DNA from: Eledone cirrhosa
Taxonomy: Eukaryota
Direction of reading: 5' to 3'
DNA length: 64,000 nucleotides
NCBI GenBank assembly: GCA_964016885.1
Contig: OZ024743.1
Location: 266,414,001 to 266,478,000 of the forward strand
In this document: piece by piece, positions 12,879 to 60,647 of the stretch
How the letters are laid out: the number at the start of each line of letters is the position of its first letter
Position numbering within the stretch: position 1 is the first letter of the stretch
The notes under the pieces: generated by a model
The model's database searches: none
Seen by the model: only the letters and a program-made list of their open reading frames with translations
What the model was told of the DNA's origin: nothing
Program-made: the position numbers and the translations under genes

Positions 12879-12950
12879 ATAGTCGTAGCTATGGTGCTTC
12901 CGTAGGCGGTATGCCAAAATTAGCACTCAATATTCATCAGAGTAGAGTGT

Positions 12951-13769
12951 ATATATTATCAAGAAATCGAAAAATCAGTAATGCATCTGGACTTAGTTTA
13001 TTTCGTATTACAAATGTTTCGCCGGCATGTAGCTCGAGTCATGGTCCTTGTATGGATTTGGCTGATTCTACTTCTGCGGGTTCTTTCAGACACGTCTGTT
13101 ATGTCCGGAGCAAATTTTATCACTGGGATGTTGTTATCAAAACAACCCCTCAAAAAACTTTCTTTCCACTCTTGTCATGCCATTGGCTGTTTTTACTCCA
13201 CATCATCACAAGTTCTGGTCAGTATCTGCTGCCACACTTTCATCAACTATTTTCTGTCCGACATATTTCAATGGAGTCATGCTGGTTTCAGTACCTCACA
13301 CGTCTGCTCACACTTCAGAGTAAGCACCCACACATACTAGAATAATCACATAGTAACACACACATATATATACTCAGACATACACCTATCTATGCATTCA
13401 CACTCGTATGTTTACATGCTCAGATACCCACACCGCCACATACATACATCGCAGTATATATACTCACACACCCTCTCTCCCTCTCTCCGTGTGGCAGCAG
13501 ATACTGACCAGAACTTGTGATCACGTGGAGTAAAAACAGCCAATGGCATGCCAAGAGTGGAAAGAAGGTTTTTTGAGGGGTTGTTTTGATAACAACACCC
13601 CAGTGATAAAATTTGCTCCGGACATAACACCCGTGTCTGAAAGAACCCGCAGAAGTAGAATCAGCCAGATCCACACAGGGACCATGACTCGAGCTATATG
13701 CCGGCGAAACATTTGTAACACGAAATAAACTAAGTCCAGATGCATCACTGATTTTTCGTTTTCTTGATA

Positions 13770-13775
<6 letters not shown>
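12951..13775. mobile_element. Fold-back element with ~285-bp inverted arms, HHR-like motif, ends in (TA)n
   Basis: 12951-13237 is the reverse complement of 13489-13775; same family as 19672-19950. Confidence 0.85.
13632..13722 (+). ncRNA. Hammerhead-like motif (variant core, long stem II)
   Basis: CGTGT-CTGAAAGA...GCCGGC-GAAA-CATTTG-TA-ACACG; stem I CGTGT/ACACG. Confidence 0.5.
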
Positions 13776-13809
<34 letters not shown>

Positions 13810-16338: not shown

Positions 16339-16403
16339 ATTTTATCTGATGAGGACGTACTGTTGAAGATAGCTCAGTACCTCTGAAATATGTATAATAA
16401 AAT
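16339..16403 (+). ncRNA. Minimal type I hammerhead ribozyme
   Basis: Stem I ATTTTAT/ATAAAAT; core CTGATGA; stem II GGACGTACTG/CAGTACCTCT; GAAA; short near-palindromic stem III ATATGTAT; cleavage triplet ATA. Confidence 0.75.
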
Positions 16404-16567
16404 ATACTTGATCACACGAATGTCTATTTTTGTTAATATTTTGAATTAATATTAATAACTCCGGAAAACCATTTTGTTGAGTGCTTCCAATCTATTGTAA
16501 AACTCATTCTTTGATTTATTCATTGAACCTTGTTTAACCTTTATATATATATATATATATATATATA

Positions 16568-17086
16568 GTTAAAAGAATAGAGGTGTAACACACAAGTTAT
16601 TATATATTGGTAAACGGAATAGAAAATGCTGACAAATTGTTCACAGTTGAAAAATGGTTTAATTAGGAATAAAAGAGTATTAGTGATTGTATGGGTTAGT
16701 ATTCAGTTGTGGTTTTAAGTTTTTAAGTTTTTACCGGTTGCGCATTTCTAAATGCTTTTCAAAAATAATTTTGAGATAGAGTGTCCGTGCTGTTTGCTCT
16801 GATCTGATTAGTTTTGGGAATTCTACCTGTTTTTATGTTTAAAAAATGGCTCCAGCGTTATTTTTGTGTTGCAAAAATGTTTGTGGTCAAAACAATTTTG
16901 ATTGGTCGGTAGAGGTCATGTGAATGTAAAAAGTTGATTTTGCGCCAAGACTGTTTTTATGTTAAAATGTTAGAAAAGTGGCTCCAGCAAAAATTATGGT
17001 CAAAACAATTTTGATTGGTCGGTAGAGGTCATGTGGATAAAAAATTGGTTTTGCGCCAGGATTGAGAAATGACTCTTTCACAACAA

Positions 17087-17130
<44 letters not shown>

Positions 17131-17824
17131 TAGTAGTAGTAAGGTGTTCGATGCTGCGACAATAGCCACCAGCGATGTGTGTCAAATGGCTATTAAGATA
17201 AGTGTGTGTGTGTGTGTGTGTGTGTGCGTACATACACACAGCAGAGTCATTCGAAGGTCAAAAGATATTTTTCAGCTTTTGTCTTATACGGAAAAGTGCG
17301 TGTGTGTGTGTGTGTGTGTGTATAAGTCTCTTTGTATGTTGATGTACGCGTGTGTATGTGTTTGTGTATATATGTGTGTGTGTGTGTGTGTGCGTGTGTG
17401 GGTGGACCAGTATTTGTTTCCCCCCTGGTAAAATGGTGTACATTATTCGATTTTTTCAGTAAAATCGGTTCTCTTAATAGAACATCAAGAATCTTAACAA
17501 TAAAAGGTGTGAAATGATATTCACTATATATATATACACACACACACACACATATATATATATATTTTCACTACATATATACATATATATATATACATAT
17601 ATACATACACACAAATGCACATATATTGTTTTGTATTGCACCATAGAGCATGTGTGTTTACGTGTGTCATTGTGTTTATATGTGGGTAGAGATGTGTGCT
17701 GATGTAGGTATGTATGTTGACGTGTGTATGTTGTGGGTTCGTCTTAGGGAGAAGTGTTTAGACGGGGTCCGTATTTGTTAATGAAGTAAGATTCCTTGCT
17801 GATGCGCTGGGTGTGGGTGGCATT
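16568..17824 (-). mobile_element. 5'-truncated Penelope-like element (GIY-YIG C-terminus plus 3'UTR)
   Basis: 17740-17824 reverse complement matches 33004-33090 (…QRISKESYFINKYGPRLNTSP*); 3' end abuts (TA)n. Confidence 0.85.
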
Positions 17825-17926
17825 ACACACGTAAACACACATGCTCCATGGTGCAATACAAAAAAATATATGTGCATGTGTGTGTATGTATATATGTATA
17901 TATATATATGTATATATGTAGTGAAA

Positions 17927-17971
<45 letters not shown>

Positions 17972-18263
17972 GTGAATATCATTTCACACCTTTTATTGTT
18001 AAGATTGTTGATGTTCCACTAAGAGAACCGATTTTACCGAAAAAATCGAACAATGTACACCACCTCACCAGGGGGGAAAAAACACTGGTCCACCCACACA
18101 CGCCCACACACACACACACACACATATACACAAACACATACACACGCGTACATCAACATACAAAGAGACCTATACACACACACACACACACACGCACTTT
18201 TCCGTATAAGACAAAAGCCGAAAAATATCTTTTGACCTTCGAATGACTCTGCTGTGTGTATGT

Positions 18264-18306
<43 letters not shown>

Positions 18307-18374
18307 TCTCAATAGCCACTTGACACACATCGCTGGTGGCCACCGTCGCAGCATCGAACACCTTACCACCACTA

Positions 18375-18428
<54 letters not shown>

Positions 18429-19225
18429 TTGTTGTGAAAGAGTCACTTCTCAATCTTGGCGCAAAACCAACCTTTCATCCACACGACCCCCACCGACCAA
18501 TCAAAATTGCTTTGACCATAATCCTTGCTGGAGCCACCCTTCCAACATTTTAACATAAAAACAGTCTTGGCGCAAAATCAACTCTCTACATTCACATGAC
18601 CTCCACCGACCAATCAAAATTGCTCCGACCACAAGCACTTCTGCAACACAAAAACAACGCTGGAGCCACCTTTTAAACATAAAAACAGGTAGAACTATTG
18701 CCGGCTGCGAATCAATTTGAACACACAATAAATTAAGTTTTCGTTTTCTATTTGTTGTGAAAGAGTCATTTCTCAATCTTGGCGCAAAACCAATTTTTTA
18801 TCCACATGACCTCTACCGACCAATCAAAATTGTTTTGACCATAATTTTTGCTGGAGCCACTTTTCTAACATTTTAACATAAAAACAGTCTTGGCGCAAAA
18901 TCAACTTTTTACATTCACATGACCTCTACCGACCAATCAAAATTGTTTTGACCACAAGCATTTTTGCAACACAAAAATAACACTGGAGCCATTTTTTAAA
19001 CATAAAAACAGGTAGAATTCCCAAAACTAATCAGATCAGAGCAAACAGCACGGACACTCTATCTCAAAATTATTTTTGAAAAGCATTTAGAAATGCGCAA
19101 CCGGTAAAAACTTAAAAACTTAAAACCACAACTGAATACTAACCCATACAATCACTAATACTCTTTTATTCCTAATTAAACCATTTTTCAACTGTGAACA
19201 ATTTGTCAGCATTTTCTGTTCCGTT
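17825..19225 (+). mobile_element. Inverted second arm of the same PLE 3'UTR with internal ~268-bp tandem duplication
   Basis: Reverse complement of ~16600-17667; 18428-18695 duplicates 18751-19018; ends in (TA)n. Confidence 0.9.
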
Positions 19226-19227
19226 TA

Positions 19228-19282
<55 letters not shown>

Positions 19283-19470
19283 GAAAATAAATCAGGAAGT
19301 TTCGCATACATGTGAAAGATATTTACTGAATATCGACCTGTTACACACGTTTCTCTGATGATTGGCTCAATATCACCATATGAATTATGGATCCGACTCC
19401 ATTATCTATCTGCTCCTTAGACTGGAGATATGACGAAATATATAGGTTTGTTGTTGTACGTGACATGGAA

Positions 19471-19600
<130 letters not shown>

Positions 19601-19671
19601 TGGTAGCTAAGATGCCTCCATACGCGGTATGCCGGTTGAGCACTCTATGCTCTTACAGAGCAGAGTATGAT

Positions 19672-19950
19672 GGAATAGAAAACGAAAAATCAGTGATGCA
19701 TCTGAACTTAATTTATTGTGTGTTCAAATTGATTCGCAGCCGGACAGCTCAAGACGCGATCATTGTGTGGATTTCGGATCATATACTCTCAGAATATGCT
19801 CCGAAATCATTAAACGTGTCCGTCGAACCTGCGGGTCCAGAATCAGACAGATCCACACAATGATCGCGTCTCAAACTGTCCGCCGGCGAAACAATTGTAA
19901 CACACAATAAATTGAGTTCAGATGCATCACTAATTTTTCGTTTTCTATTC
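19672..19950. mobile_element. Short fold-back element with degenerate hammerhead
   Basis: Arms 19672-19772/19851-19950; GTGT-CCGTCGA...GAAA-CAATTG-TA-ACAC at 19816-19903. Confidence 0.75.
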
Positions 19951-20184
19951 TATATATGTATATATATATATATAGAGAGAGAGAGATAGATATAGATATA
20001 AATGTAATCTGAGTATAATATTCGATTCGTTTGTAATTTAACAATCTGGCTGATCAGTCAGATCGGTATATTAGCAGATCCACTGATCAGCGAGATTTGA
20101 AATCAGCAGACAGGCCAGTCAGTTTCATGCATACGAGTGAGTAATGGCCGGCTTTGCCATATTCAAATAACTATAAAAAAAACT

Positions 20185-20449
20185 TATCGCTCTACATGGC
20201 TTAATACAATAAATTTAATCTGAATTTTTCGAATATCTATAATAATATTCGATTCGTTTGCAAGTATGCAAACGAGCCTTTTTAAAGCCATTACAGTAGA
20301 ACAAGCCCCTCATTATTGCGCTTATGTTGGGATGTAAACAGAACTGCAGACACTAATATTTCTGGGTGATTGCAAAAGAATCGAATATCATTATTAATAT
20401 TCGAAAAGCACAGATTACATTTATTGTATTCAGCCATGTAGAGCGATAA
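20185..20449. repeat. Inverted repeat of the family also at 34620-35020
   Basis: TCGCTCTACATGGCT...GTTTGCAA vs TGCAAAAGAATCG...AGCCATGTAGAGCGA. Confidence 0.7.
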
Positions 20450-31875: not shown

Positions 31876-32369
31876 TTGACAGTGCGCCGGAAAGTTTAAC
31901 ACTTGAGTACTGATAAAAGTCATGATCAAAAGGATTTTGACAACAAAGCAAGTTGATTGTACACTATATGAATATATCGAGCAACGGCATTAGTTGGGAT
32001 GAATTCCGCACAAGGTGGATGAGATGAAGGTTGCCATTTCCCAACCCTAGTGTAAATAACATAGTGAATAACCTAAATTGATTTTAAAAGTTATGTTTAG
32101 TCAGGTATTAAGAATGATGCAAGTTAATGAGCTGCCCGAGGAAATATAGAAAATAATCCTTTAAACAAAATATTGTGGTATGTCTAAGGCTGTACTGACG
32201 GAAATAATGTATGAAATTTAAATAAATTTAGTAGAACTGTTTTAAAATGTTGCTGACTTAGTAGTAAATATAAAGTATGTATCAGTATGCGAAGAATAAC
32301 TACTGGAAAAATCATTTTAAAAAATGAAACATGTACACACAAACAGAGACACATAAACATACCCAAATA

Positions 32370-32415
<46 letters not shown>

Positions 32416-32417
<2 letters not shown>

Positions 32418-33738
32418 TAAAACTCAGTACCCAGGGCCTTAGACACACTAAAGTAAATCAACCGAAACTAAAAGCTCTTCCATACATCTCCACACACAAC
32501 CCCCTCAACAATGAGGCCTTTGACACCATCCTCCAGAACATCCATGTGTTGAAAAAGGACCATAGAATGAACCAAATCCTACGAACACACGATATCATAA
32601 AGAGCAAAAGACAATCTAAGTCAATGAAAAACATCCTAACACATGCCAAAGTACTGCCAACCACAACAACGAAATCCACAGTAAAAAAATGCGATAGACC
32701 CAACTGTGGCATATGCATCAATCTAATAGAGGGTTCGGAATTCTATTTCAAAGAAGGACAAAGTTTTATAGTAAAACACAATTTCACATGCACATCAGAA
32801 AATCTAATATATGTATTAACTTGCTCTGGTTGAGAACAATACATAGGCCAGACCAAAATTAGCCTCCGCCAACGCATGACTGTCCATAGATCCCAAATTA
32901 AAATACGGGAATACAGGAAAATACCACTGAGTGAACACATTGATACCTGCGCCGCCCAAAATCATCCCAACTTCAGAATCTTTCCCCTCTACAAATTTAA
33001 AGATAATGCCACCCATACCCAGCGCATCAGCAAGGAATCTTACTTTATTAACAAATACGGACCCCGTCTAAACACTTCTCCCTAAGACGAACCCACAACA
33101 TACACACGCAAACATACATACCTACATCAGCATACATCTCTATCCACATATAAACACCATGACATACGTAAACACACATGTTCTATGGTGCAACACAAAT
33201 ATACACATATTTGCATACTTTTGATGTCTATAGATATAAACGTGCCGACACACACACATACATAAACGCACACACGCATTGCACACTGATGAGCACATAA
33301 ATATTTGTACACAAGTATTCCAATACGGCAAGGCCTAATGGATTCCCCTTGCAGTACGTACAATCTGGACACTCACACACACCTTGGTATTATGCCGATA
33401 CTATATATCATTTCACACATTTTATTATTAAGGTTTTTGATGTTCTATTGAGAGAATCGTTTTTACTGAAAATATCGAAGAATGTACACCATTTTACCAG
33501 TATCACAAAAATAAATACTGTGTCCACCCACACACACACACACACACATATATATATACACACACACATACACACGCGTACATTAACATACAAAGAGACA
33601 TATACACACACACATACACACACACACACACTCCTCCGTATAATATAAGAGCTGAAAAATAACTTTTAACATGTTAAAATATCCCCACACACTTACAGAC
33701 ACATTCCTACTGACCATCCCTCTACCCGAATTACTCTG

Positions 33739-33807
<69 letters not shown>

Positions 33808-34350
33808 TCTTAATAGGCATTTGAACTATCAACAGGCTGCTTGTCGCACACACATCCCTGCTGACCATTATCCCAACAACGAACTACTACTACTACACAC
33901 ACACACACATATTTGTTTTGAAAGACTTATTTTTCAGTGACTTCTCAATCAGCCGTCACAAATCTACATTTGGCGCAAAATCAATTTTTAACATATGACC
34001 TCTACCGACCAATCAAAATTGTTTTGACCACAAGAATTTTTGCAACACGAATTGGCGCAAAACTTATTTTAATACATCTGGAGCCACTTTTTTCACATAA
34101 AAACAGGTAGAATTTCCAAAACTAATCAGATTAGAGCAAACATCACAGACGCTCTATCTCAAAATTATTTTTGAAAAGCATTAGAAATGCGCAACCGGTA
34201 AAACTTAAAACCAAAACTGGATACTAACCAATACTATTACTAATTCTCACTTATTCCTAATTAAACTATTTTTCACTGTGAGCAATTTGTCAGCATTTTC
34301 TTTTCCGTTTACCAATATATCATAACTTGTGGGTTACACCTCTATTCTTT

Positions 34351-34352
<2 letters not shown>
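32416..34352 (+). mobile_element. 5'-truncated Penelope-like element inserted in (TA)n
   Basis: GIY-YIG region plus long CA-rich 3'UTR; (TA)n at 32372-32415 and 34354-34411. Confidence 0.9.
32417..33085 (+). pseudogene. PLE linker/Zn finger plus GIY-YIG endonuclease, one in-frame TGA at 32831
   Basis: LPYISTHNP; CDRPNCGIC; NLIYVLTCSG*EQYIGQT...LRQRMTVHR...EH...R..KESYFI..Y.PRLN. Confidence 0.9.
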
Positions 34353-34411
<59 letters not shown>

Positions 34412-38794: not shown

Positions 38795-41700
38795 GTCAGC
38801 CAACGCCATCAGTCGCATATTTTGGTGTGGGAGACTATTCATTAAATTTAAGATGAATACTATCTCCGACAGTAATGCTACAACTACCAGTCATGTTGCA
38901 TAACTGGATATTCTTCTAACTATATCTACTGAAGGCACCTTTTATTCGAATTCGGAGAGATATCCGACAAAATACATAATTCATTTTACAAAGATTTGCT
39001 ACAAACAGCATGGCTGAACACAACATCAACAACAACAACATTAAGGAAGTACCGAAGAAAAACAACGAGAAAGGTTAAAAAATTTATTCAGTTGTAGCTG
39101 CAGAAGAAACCGAAATTATAAATCGCATTTCTCTTGGAGTTGTGAACATAATGATGATTTATTTTATTGTAATATAATGGCAAAAAACAATCCCTCCATT
39201 GGCTATATGAACAGAATGAAGCTACACTGGGACGAAATACACCCAGAGATAAATCACTTCACAGCAAAACAATTACGCCAACAAGTGAGGTTTGTTGAAC
39301 GTAAAAATAAGATAAATATTATTAATTGTAAGTCCCCCACAACAAACATGGGATCAACAACAGGTGCTACTGGTCGCCATGCTACTTGACTCCCTAGCAG
39401 CCATGTCGAACAGTGATTTGAAACAACTATGCCTGTATGAAACTTGACACCACGTGTACCATCTAAGTCTACCTCAAATGCAGGGGAAAATACTATCGAT
39501 AATAATAATAATAATCGAAGAAATAATGCTTTTCTTTATTAACCACAAGGGTTTACACAAATAGACATTAAGGACAGTACAGGTCAATACAGGGCAATAC
39601 AGATGGGCATTTCTTTGTGTAAAAAAAAACAAAAAACAGAGGATGTAATAAAAAGAACAATTAAAAATTCTCCAATAGGGGGGGGGGTGACTTCCGAGGG
39701 CCATCGTGGAGAAAGCCCATTAAAAAAAAGCCACGGTGATTCTGACCACCAGGGCAAGTGTCCTCTCCCAGTTTTCCACCTTCAATTTACAGGCATATAC
39801 TCAGAGCCATTCTTGCCTCTCTCACCCATCTTTCAACAAAAATCTGGGAAGAGAGCATTTCCCTCTCTACACTAATTTTCCTTTTCAAATGAAATTTGAA
39901 TCGAGGAAATTTGACAACACTTGTACCATCCGAGTCTACCTCGACTATTGTGGAAAATACCATCGATAACGATAATAATGAAAAATATAAACAATTGAAC
40001 ATTTCCCTCAACGAAATCTTCCAGAGAAAAATTAATTCATGTATAAATATCTCTCTTGCTGAACTTATTAAAACAAGAATATTTAATAAAAAAACAAATA
40101 ATGAAATATTACGTGTTATTGACGAAATAGAGGCCGAATATTTACGACGGATAAAAACCCCAATATTTTGGCAAATCAACGCCTGTTTATATGCCTTAGC
40201 AACGACAGTGAAGCATTATCTTGGTGATAGCAGAGATATTAACAAGAACAAAACACCACCAAAAATGCCATCATACATAACTAAAATAGAAAAAAAGATT
40301 GCTGACCTACGAAAACCATTGGATATGTGACAATGCTCCTTACATGCAAACAAACACAAAGAAAACCTCACTCCTCACCAACAAAGAGTGAAAAATAAAA
40401 TAGAGACGGTATTTGGTAACAGTAGAATCAGAACCCTTCAATATAAGCTGATCACCCTCAAACAAGAATTGAGAGCTGTTAGCGAAAAACGCCGATGCCT
40501 AAAGTGGGTAGATGAAAGAAAAGTGATTAATAAAAGATTCAGACGAAATCAAACATCAGTCTATAGAGATATGAAGGACAAAATAATAAGTGTCACTGAG
40601 GCCCCATCCCAGAAAGACATAGATTCCATTTTTTTGAGAAAAATATGGGGTGAAAAGAAAAATGTCAACCAAGATGCAGTGTGGCTAAAAGAAATCCGAA
40701 AGAACTATTGCTCCTACACTAAAACAAAAGCATACGAAATAAGTGAGGGTACACTTGAGACTGTGATAGGAAAACTCCAATATGAGAAAACACCAGGAAG
40801 AGTCATGATTGTCGGCTACTGGTACAACAATCTGATATTCTATCGGAGGTATCATATTGAATTCTACCAACTAGTTCTTAAGAGAGATACACTTATACCA
40901 GAATGGTTGACATTAGCACAAACATTAGTGGTCCCCAAGAACAAAGACACCCACTTGGCAAAAAACTACCGACCCATTGCATGCCAGAACCCGATATATA
41001 AGATGTATACAGCTTGCCTGAACCTATTCCTCCAAGATCAACGTGAAAATAATAACATCATCACAGATGAACAAGCAGCTGGAAAGAAAGGGGTTTGGGG
41101 ATGTGCTGAACAACTCCTAATCAACAAAACTGCGATGTCACAGGTGCGACAACTTAGGAGGAATATGGCTAAAGTCTGGCTGGACTACAGGAAAGTTTTC
41201 GATTCTGTTCTCCACTCTTGGATGATAAAGGCCTTCCAACTTGCTAAAGTCCCAGACATTATCAAAGCTATAGAGAAGCTGTCTTTTTATTGGGCTACTA
41301 TCCTAAGGTTAAAAACAGAGAGGGAGGACTCTATTTTCACTGATAAAATAAAATATCGCAGGCTTATATTTCAGGGAGACAGTATCTCTGTGATATTATT
41401 CATCCTGTCATTAAACCCCTTGTCTTTTCTGCTCAAGAAATGTGAAGGACATAAATATGAACTTAACCCATAATTTCTTTGTGGATGATCTGAAACTCTA
41501 TGCCAAGAACATGGATGGGATGAAGAAAAATCTTGACCTGGTTACAACGTTCTCAAAGGAAATAGGAATGGAGTTTGGCCAAGATAAATGCTCATATATG
41601 ACTGTAAAGCGGGGAAAACAACAACCCAATCTAGCAACATTGTCATCAATGGCCTAACTGTTTCATCGATATCTGATGAGGACTGCCACAGATACCTGGG

Positions 41701-52025: not shown

Positions 52026-52082
<57 letters not shown>

Positions 52083-52119
52083 GTGTGTGTGTGTGTGTTT
52101 GTTTGTGTGTGTATGTGGT

Positions 52120-53519
<1,400 letters not shown>

Positions 53520-53567
53520 TGTATATATATGTATGTGTATATATATATATATATATACATGTATATA

Positions 53568-58004: not shown

Positions 58005-58573
58005 AATTCAGTATTCGTGCCAACCAATACTTCTAGTCATGAATCTTCGGTAATGACAGAAAGAATACGATCGCGAATACTAACGGCCGAAATGGGTTTC
58101 CTCCGAAGGGTCTGTGTAGTAACGTTATTCGATAAAGTACATAGCTCAGATATCAGAGAGTCACCACAGGTAGAGACGCTACTTCTCCGAATTGCCATAT
58201 CACAGCTCCGGTTCTATGGGGATGTGGTTAAAATGGCCCAGGAAAGAATCGCTGGACAGCTTTTACATGCAAAACCAACTGGCAGGAGCCCTAGGGATAG
58301 GCTCGGAGCAAGATGGTTGGGTAACATATATGCGCTCGGTTGTTATCGCTTGGGTATCTAGCCGGATAATTTGGAAGCGTTTGATTTTGACAAAATGTGC
58401 TGGAAGGAGTGTTTGAGTACACTGCCCCCATGACTCTCTCAGGAATAAGTTGACGAAGAAGAAGAAGAAGAAGAAGAAGAAGAAGAAGAAGAAGAAGAAG
58501 AAGAAGAAGAAGAAGAAGAAGAAGAAGAAGAAGAAGAAGAAGAAGAAGAAGAAGAAGAAGAAGAAGAAGAAGA
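58005..58573 (+). mobile_element. RTE-clade LINE 3' end with (GAA)n tail
   Basis: AEMGFLRRV...DKVHSSDIRE...QLRFYGDVVKM...GRSPRDR..RW; (GAA)n at 58455-58573. Confidence 0.8.
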
Positions 58574-58574
58574 A

Positions 58575-60647
<2,073 letters not shown>

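What the first reader, a model, noticed from the sequence alone, without database searches (positions are those of the whole stretch)
18696..18752. Junction of the hyper-mutated tract is templated from DNA 1 kb downstream, suggesting in-place RNA-templated repair
Seen: 18701-18739 is an exact 39-nt reverse complement of 19705-19743, including variants private to that arm. 18738-18752 is the reverse complement of 19674-19688. After it the sequence resumes ~268 bp back, creating the tandem duplication. The left arm and copy B are unedited. Known: short local inverted templated insertions are typical of polymerase-theta end joining or template switching. Inference: the edited segment was probably synthesised at this locus (cDNA extension on the locus's own transcript, then end-joining) rather than arriving as a distant retrocopy.
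Basis: partly seen in the sequence, partly recalled or inferred. Interest (0 to 1): 0.8.

Follow-up and report, generated by a model that had tools for sequence, protein, structure and literature searches.

The report
ADAR-edited RNA written back into locus
A 650-base stretch inside a young retrotransposon carries the fingerprint of the RNA-editing enzyme ADAR, this locus's own rare variants, and a joint patched with DNA from 1 kb away, which most likely means an edited transcript was copied back into the spot it came from.

Summary
Observation confirmed. 18701-18739 is the exact reverse complement of 19705-19743; the 39-mer occurs only at these two places in the 3.0 Gb genome, although the donor repeat family gave about 1,000 candidates. 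Its right arm carries 43 T>C changes at 159 sites (18017-18670), antisense to the element, with ADAR context (5' G 1 of 24, p=0.005). The edited arm shares two rare variants with this locus's other arms (0 of 20 and 0 of 29 in a position-ordered sample), and editing starts inside the arm, not at the inversion junction (1 of 76 versus 43 of 159). Best reading (0.6): an edited hairpin transcript of this locus was reverse-transcribed in place and end-joined by local template switching. Rivals: made at insertion by the element's own reverse transcriptase from an antisense RNA (0.2); ADAR acting on DNA (0.08). Polymerase theta is not established. A second hyper-edited copy of the family lies on contig C437. 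Transcription, the unedited allele and junction-spanning reads remain to be shown.

The parts
16541..17824 (-). Left arm: 5'-truncated Penelope-like element (end of GIY-YIG ORF plus 3' region), 3' end in a (TA)n target, unedited; longer arm, carries the tail
16568..16600 (-). About 33-nt tail extension, present on this arm only
17821..17826 (.). Standard head-to-head inversion junction of the element, short overlap, no filler
17824..18016 (+). Inner right arm, essentially unedited (1 T>C of 76 sites, at 17847 in the best ADAR context); shares a microsatellite haplotype with the left arm
18017..18670 (-). Hyper-edited tract: 43 A>G on the minus strand (antisense to the element), 27% of adenosines; holds locus-specific variant 18200
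18427..18694 (+). Copy A of the tandem duplication (edited, 24 T>C); end of the inferred cDNA; carries rare variant 18675 shared with left arm and B
18695..18700 (.). Six bases without an assignable template (first five repeat the end of the filler)
18701..18739 (+). 39-nt inverted templated filler, exact copy of 19705-19743, no edits
18738..18752 (+). 15-nt second filler piece, rc of 19674-19688; 2-nt overlap with the 39-mer, 3-nt microhomology with copy B
18750..19237 (+). Copy B and the rest of the right arm, unedited, ending in (TA)n without tail; one private G>A (18982) inside the duplicated part
19674..19743 (.). Donor of the filler, in the left arm of an unrelated short inverted-repeat element (19670-19953; family of about 1,000 candidates)

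Best explanation
A young Penelope-like retrotransposon first inserted here in its usual head-to-head form, the right arm copied from the same source as the left (shown for the family; inferred here). A read-through transcript, most simply of the minus strand, folded into an 850-bp hairpin and was hyper-edited by ADAR (signature shown; transcript inferred). A break or nick in the right arm left a plus-strand 3' end near 18000-18017, which annealed to that RNA and was extended about 680 nt by a reverse transcriptase, writing C opposite inosine (inferred; enzyme unknown, the element's own RT/GIY-YIG protein is the most natural candidate). The cDNA overshot the right-hand broken end by 268 nt. Being 9% mismatched there, it did not anneal back by homology (inferred), and was joined by microhomology-guided template switching that copied two pieces of unedited DNA from about 1 kb downstream (anatomy shown). 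The result is an edited tract, a filler and a tandem duplication at one locus.
For: One substitution type on one strand: 43 of 51 substitutions against the left arm; family polarises T as ancestral at all 44 sites; 5' G 1 of 24, p=0.005, TAG 7 of 9; ADAR-family deaminase exons on three contigs. Local template: variant 18200 lies between edits at 18170 and 18219, is shared with the left arm, absent from 34 of 34 family segments and 20 of 20 position-ordered arms; genome-wide it has 9 hits, 2 here and 7 in copies 1.4-6.6% diverged with other haplotypes. Variant 18675/18998/16840 is shared by A, B and left arm, 0 of 29 in the position-ordered sample. Seamless internal start: 1 of 76 inner sites edited versus 16 expected by context, p about 1e-6. 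Donor unique and local. Filler has 0 changes over 15 A and 17 T, p 0.009 and 0.005 at the tract's rate, so it was probably copied from DNA. None of 27 other head-to-head loci shows the marker of an in-arm duplication.
Against: The single inner change (17847) sits in the only TAG context there, so the cDNA may begin at the inversion junction; runs of up to 17 unedited sites occur inside the tract, which blurs the start. A lacks B's one private variant in the duplicated part (18982) and the left-arm private variants at 17059 and 16880: the event is not clearly younger than the insertion. The variant at 18675 is in 9 of 44 segments of the similarity-chosen sample, so it marks a small subfamily, not the locus alone. 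A lost or unassembled parent element could carry both markers. At the second edited locus (C437) the edited arms are longer than the unedited outer arms and differ from the tail arm at a common variant, which fits capture from elsewhere better than copying in place. 4 of 27 other inversion junctions hold non-element sequence, so the element's own integration can capture fillers. 3' G preference is weak (13 of 32, p=0.07).
Confidence: 0.6

Rival explanations
1. Made in one step at insertion. The element's RT copied an unedited sense RNA (left arm), then switched onto an ADAR-edited antisense RNA of the same parent (arm A), while B was primed from the right-hand target end; the ends were joined with a filler from flanking DNA about 450 bp beyond the target site. 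This would be a fossil of the antisense-template step proposed for Penelope elements.
For: Element encodes RT and GIY-YIG. PMC3846280 (discussion read) argues that head-to-head inversions need an antisense template; PMC11167929 (main text part 1) shows a PLE protein cleaving and extending both target strands. Edits are antisense to the element; 17847 may be an edit next to the junction; no shared post-insertion mutation between A and B. C437 has edited arms between two unedited outer arms. The donor is nearer the target site than the duplication point.
Against: Needs two RNAs, one unedited and one edited, from a parent that is not among the 9 hits of the marker. 1 of 76 inner sites edited. Edited arms are rare: 1 doubly edited hit against 5,834 unedited and none among 20 position-ordered loci, so edited antisense templates are not the rule.
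Confidence: 0.2
2. ADAR deaminated the minus DNA strand in place inside an RNA:DNA hybrid; replication through the damaged strand stalled at 18694 and restarted by DNA template switching (to the opposite strand 1 kb ahead, then to the unedited sister), with no reverse transcription.
For: Explains local markers, the unedited DNA-templated filler and the long inverted jump. ADAR1 as DNA mutator is proposed in 10.1101/2020.02.11.943845 (abstract only).
Against: 27% density over 650 nt with RNA-like neighbour preference; to my knowledge (recalled) DNA-strand deamination by ADAR is far less efficient. At C437 both arms of a hairpin are edited on one strand and nothing outside them, which points to folded RNA. 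No other clean A>G or T>C tract among the window's repeat pairs outside microsatellites.
Confidence: 0.08
3. cDNA from an edited transcript of another family copy was captured here by homology (gene conversion in trans) and end-joined locally.
For: Thousands of near-identical copies exist; C437 looks like capture in trans.
Against: The tract carries this locus's rare variants; no young copy elsewhere has the 18200 variant.
Confidence: 0.06
4. The edits are real but the tandem arrangement and filler are an assembly error or chimeric read joining two haplotypes.
For: Long inverted repeats are hard to assemble (PMC8557442, passages).
Against: The filler is a two-piece copy with microhomologies at two joints, which an assembler would not invent (inference); the edited bases are in a read-derived contig.
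Confidence: 0.06

Closest known systems
Transcript-RNA-templated double-strand break repair in cis (Keskin et al. 2014 as reviewed in PMC12686478, passages; Jalan et al. 2025, PMC12065846, abstract)
   Same: A locus's own transcript serves as template for DNA synthesis at a break; recognised by an RNA-specific mark fixed in DNA.
   Different: There the mark is intron loss in reporters or tumours; here it is dense A-to-I editing in an apparently inherited allele, with a duplication and templated filler instead of clean repair. Enzyme and transcript are not shown.
Localized retroprocessing in plant mitochondria (PMC4987113, abstract)
   Same: Partial cDNA of an edited RNA replaces the matching genomic segment, fixing edited bases.
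   Different: C-to-U editing of organelle mRNA with seamless conversion; here nuclear A-to-I hyper-editing of a repeat hairpin with a non-homologous second junction.
ADAR-hyperedited retroelement RNA fixed in DNA by normal reverse transcription (avian retroviral cases, recalled; scan notes e1-8045164, e1-8045548, e1-7810917, e1-8036428, unchecked)
   Same: One-strand A>G cluster with ADAR context inside a retroelement copy.
   Different: As noted there, the edits are on the sense strand or in a newly inserted copy. Here they are antisense, confined to the middle of one arm, and carry the locus's own markers.
Penelope-like elements with C-terminal GIY-YIG (Neptune-type linker) and inverted 5'-truncated copies (PMC8557442, PMC3846280)
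   Same: RT then GIY-YIG with a CX4CxxC linker, head-to-head truncated arms, tail on one arm, (TA)n targets.
   Different: No edited arm or in-arm duplication with flank-derived filler in 27 other loci examined; RT phylogeny not done; no Rfam hammerhead found.
Polymerase theta templated insertions (PMC7165422, passages)
   Same: Inverted, multi-round, 2-3 nt microhomologies, AT-rich local template.
   Different: First tract 39 nt rather than under 10, and donor about 1 kb from the joint; long-range template switching or an RT jump fits equally.

Membership tests
ADAR hyper-editing signature | Cluster of A>G only, on one strand | tested here: met
   43 of 51 substitutions; family polarises direction
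ADAR hyper-editing signature | Depletion of G 5' of edited A | tested here: met
   1 of 24, p=0.005; C437 1 of 19, p=0.004
ADAR hyper-editing signature | Preference for G 3' of edited A | tested here: inconclusive
   13 of 32, p=0.07; C437 8 of 21, p=0.62
ADAR hyper-editing signature | Lies in long double-strand-forming sequence | tested here: met
   850-bp inverted repeat
ADAR hyper-editing signature | Editing seen in RNA against matched DNA | not testable with these tools
   needs stranded RNA reads of this locus
RNA-templated repair in cis | Template comes from the same locus | tested here: met
   two rare markers shared with the locus's other arms; a lost parent is not excluded
RNA-templated repair in cis | Homology-primed start inside pre-existing DNA | tested here: inconclusive
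   1 of 76 inner sites edited, p about 1e-6, but 17847 may be an edit
RNA-templated repair in cis | Pre-event allele and transcript exist | not testable with these tools
   no relative genome is held
Penelope-like element, C-terminal EN | GIY-YIG endonuclease at the end of the ORF | tested here: met
   PF01541 E 7e-7 and 1e-6 in L030, L065
Penelope-like element, C-terminal EN | Upstream RT domain of PLE type | tested here: inconclusive
   RVT_1 E 0.009, under cut-off; RT-like motifs visible in L065; no tree built
Penelope-like element, C-terminal EN | Inverted 5'-truncated copies, tail on one end, (TA)n targets | tested here: met
   tail probe on exactly one arm in 26 of 28 loci, both in 1, none in 1
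Penelope-like element, C-terminal EN | Hammerhead ribozyme in the pLTR | tested here: inconclusive
   no Rfam hammerhead in window 16400-20200 or L065, L072; minimal hammerheads can fall below thresholds (recalled)
Polymerase theta templated insertion | Microhomology at the switches, several rounds, inverted local template | tested here: met
   2 and 3 nt at two of three joints
Polymerase theta templated insertion | Short first tract (rarely over 10 bp) | tested here: not met
   39 nt, donor about 1 kb away
Polymerase theta templated insertion | Genetic dependence on POLQ | not testable with these tools
   single natural allele

The most novel reading that the evidence does not exclude
In this animal's germ line, ADAR-hyperedited hairpin transcripts are recurrently written back into DNA at or beside their own loci by RNA-templated break repair, probably using the Penelope-like RT, so that RNA editing becomes an inherited mutation cluster. 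Editing tracts in inverted repeats would then be a genome-wide barcode for natural RNA-templated repair, and the edits themselves would force end-joining by blocking re-annealing.
Probability: 0.35. Interest if true: 0.85.

Novelty: new variant of a known kind. Interest (0 to 1): 0.68.

Why it matters
Evidence that transcripts template repair of their own locus in a natural germ line is scarce and, in the papers seen here, rests on intron loss. Dense ADAR edits are an independent, strand-resolved mark of an RNA template, with base-level start and end points. If the in-place reading holds, this allele records the whole event, and young inverted repeats give a cheap genome-wide screen. If the insertion-time reading holds, it is direct sequence evidence for the antisense-template step of Penelope replication, which PMC3846280 left open. 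Either way it shows RNA editing entering the genome, rarely: two loci found in a family of thousands.

Tried and rejected
Junction in reads: bins 18695-18748 had no depth in any of 4 runs laid, and no piece spans the stretch; edited bins 18587-18640 were also empty in X1-X3, and the tool states that a hole proves nothing, so this is no evidence either way. No RNA holder listed. Run X6 (another sample, kind unknown) has contigs at 95% or better on edited bins 18479-18532 and 18587-18640; not interpretable. Unedited allele: no relative genome held; the flank of C437 proved repetitive, so no allelic locus was found. A>G excess in L018 and L030 lies in TA/CA microsatellites and is partly shared between them; not counted as editing. 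A hairpin explanation for the 18 nt skipped in the donor: folding no better than shuffles (z 0.1 and 1.5). Six other tail-to-tail loci as source of the C437 hairpin: none edited, none a clear source. Rfam gave only microsatellite matches below cut-off. TpA-specific DNA hypermutation: rejected, 23 of 43 edited sites have 5' A and only one strand is hit. C>T decay in left arm and B: rejected by the family. ADAR editing of the first-strand cDNA before fold-back: would edit both arms. Host gene and direction of transcription: no host exon recognised among the window's ORFs (3 of 47 scanned). No solved structure matched the RT. Literature searches listed no paper describing an ADAR-edited tract written back into its own nuclear locus; I saw listings and abstract starts only, and the library lacks most subscription papers. 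No supplements were read.

Full report
Setting. The window is G000:C4:266414001-266478000 of a 3.0 Gb, microsatellite-rich animal genome. A SINE in the window resembles, from memory only, octopus SINEs; I did not test this. The genome encodes ADAR-family deaminase domains on three contigs plus one further piece (PF02137, 12 matches of 17 scored).

Observation. Both filler matches are exact. The 39-mer has 2 hits genome-wide, the insert and the donor, although the donor lies in a short inverted-repeat family with 1,001 first-look candidates whose best other members, of 40 scored, are 91-94% identical. It differs at 6 of 39 positions from the donor's other arm. The 15-mer matches both donor arms, but it is colinear with the 39-mer: the filler is one donor stretch, 19743 to 19674, with 18 nt skipped at a 2-nt microhomology. 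It joins copy B through 3 shared bases and copy A through 6 unassigned bases. The junction query found no second composite among 40 scored of 164 candidates.

The edited tract. Against the left arm, the right arm up to 18694 shows 43 T>C among 51 substitutions. A global alignment lists 44 sites: 43 in 18017-18670 and one at 17847. The family majority is T at all 44; two sites are family polymorphisms (C in 6 of 36 and 11 of 44) and one lies in a microsatellite. On the minus strand 43 of 159 adenosines are changed; 5' G is depleted (1 of 24, p=0.005), TAG is favoured (7 of 9), 3' G is only suggestive (p=0.07). This matches the ADAR signature described in PMC2873906 (passages). A contig of run X2 matches 18427-18573 with no difference, covering 13 edits; that run may be the assembly's own sample.

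What the repeat is. [quoted passage not shown] One 30-mer has 5,834 exact hits, and close copies differ by 0.3-0.8%. In 27 head-to-head loci (20 picked in chromosome order from pairs listed, 7 from earlier searches) the arms are 5'-truncated; most meet at a short overlap, 4 hold extra non-element sequence at the junction, and a tail probe sits on exactly one arm in 26 of 28 loci including this one. This is the Penelope-like architecture of PMC8557442 and PMC3846280 (passages, discussion). The two arms of a locus come from one source: 12 of 12 two-arm loci agree at a 62/38 polymorphism, and 11 of 27 share a rare variant. So the left arm, and the junction at 17824, are an ordinary insertion. The edits are antisense to the element, which ordinary copying of its sense RNA cannot give.

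Where the edited RNA came from. Variant 18200 lies between two edits, is shared with the left arm, and is absent from 34 of 34 and 20 of 20 other segments. Its 27-mer has 9 hits, 2 here and 7 in copies 1.4-6.6% diverged with other haplotypes. A second variant is shared by A, B and the left arm; it is in 0 of 29 position-ordered arms but 9 of 44 similarity-chosen segments. The template was therefore this locus or an unseen parent. Editing begins inside the arm: 1 of 76 inner sites against 16.4 expected by context, and 0 of the 21 nearest sites against 5.7. Against this, the one inner change is at the best ADAR context, and gaps of up to 17 unedited sites occur in the tract. Timing is unresolved: A lacks B's one private change in the duplicated part and the left arm's private changes, which slightly favours the right arm (minus-strand RNA) as template and an event not long after insertion (inference from few sites).

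Mechanism. Most likely a plus-strand 3' end near 18000-18017 primed on the locus's edited hairpin RNA, copied about 680 nt, overshot the other end by 268 nt, failed to re-anneal at 9% mismatch, and was joined by template switching. The filler shows no change over 15 A and 17 T, so it was probably copied from DNA, either by snap-back of a resected right end or by invasion from the cDNA end; the microhomologies do not decide the direction. Polymerase theta fits the multi-round inverted pattern, but its first tracts are rarely over 10 bp (PMC7165422). The element's own protein is a candidate, since a PLE protein cleaves and extends both strands of AT-rich DNA in vitro (PMC11167929). These steps are inferred; only the anatomy and markers are shown.

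Recurrence. Motifs with two letters fixed as edited found one more locus, on the 26-kb contig C437. There both arms of a tail-to-tail hairpin carry A>G on the same strand (27 of 28 and 23 of 26 substitutions; 27 of 88 and 23 of 62 adenosines; 5' G 1 of 19, p=0.004), between two nearly unedited outer arms. This is strong evidence that edited RNA of this family reaches DNA. It looks more like capture from elsewhere than copying in place. A third motif found only this window's tract. These motifs test three short segments and miss tracts unedited at the fixed sites, so two loci is a lower bound.

Comparison and verdict. Edited RNA fixed by reverse transcription is known in kind: plant mitochondrial retroprocessing (PMC4987113, abstract), retroviral hypermutation (recalled), and four unchecked scan notes on sense-strand or LTR fossils. 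RNA-templated repair in cis is known from reporters and tumour intron loss (PMC12686478 passages; PMC12065846 abstract). The combination here, antisense ADAR tract, locus-specific markers and a locally templated joint, did not appear in the listings of searches. I rate it a new variant of a known kind: in-place rewriting 0.6, insertion-time antisense template 0.2, DNA-strand editing 0.08, capture in trans 0.06, assembly error 0.06. Interest 0.68.

Noticed in passing
L052:1089-1901 (G000:C437): Second hyper-edited locus of the same Penelope-like family: tail-to-tail hairpin with both arms A>G on one strand (50 edits), between two nearly unedited arms; the tail arm carries one change matching each edited arm.
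   Followed up: partly
L018:980-1250 and L030:920-1000: Young copies with 14 and 10 A>G changes on the sense strand, nearly all in TA/CA repeats that could pair locally; may be sense-RNA editing inherited by a subfamily, or microsatellite turnover. The window's arms share similar changes at 17878-17910.
   Followed up: partly
window 32357-34390: Older, more diverged copy of the same Penelope-like family with an ORF remnant.
   Followed up: no
window 40331-41473 and 58449-59981: LINE-like reverse transcriptase ORF remnants (Pfam RVT_1).
   Followed up: partly
window 12950-13237 and 13489-13776: Another member of the donor's inverted-repeat family, arms 95% alike, no editing bias.
   Followed up: partly
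window 52027-53534: 1.5-kb imperfect palindrome (89%), transition-rich in both directions, not one-strand edited.
   Followed up: partly
window 59949-60270 and 60328-60647: Direct repeat pair with 6 A>G among 13 substitutions; too few to call.
   Followed up: no
L074:1968-2255 and L078:2994-4104: Non-element DNA (286 nt and about 800 nt) captured at head-to-head junctions; no source found in their own flanks.
   Followed up: partly
L073:6098-7596: A second, more diverged inverted pair abuts the long arm, suggesting insertion into or next to an older copy of the same family.
   Followed up: no
L054 and L053 (G000:C437:6081-21850): The contig begins with a 7.7-kb-armed palindrome at 94% identity.
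   Followed up: no
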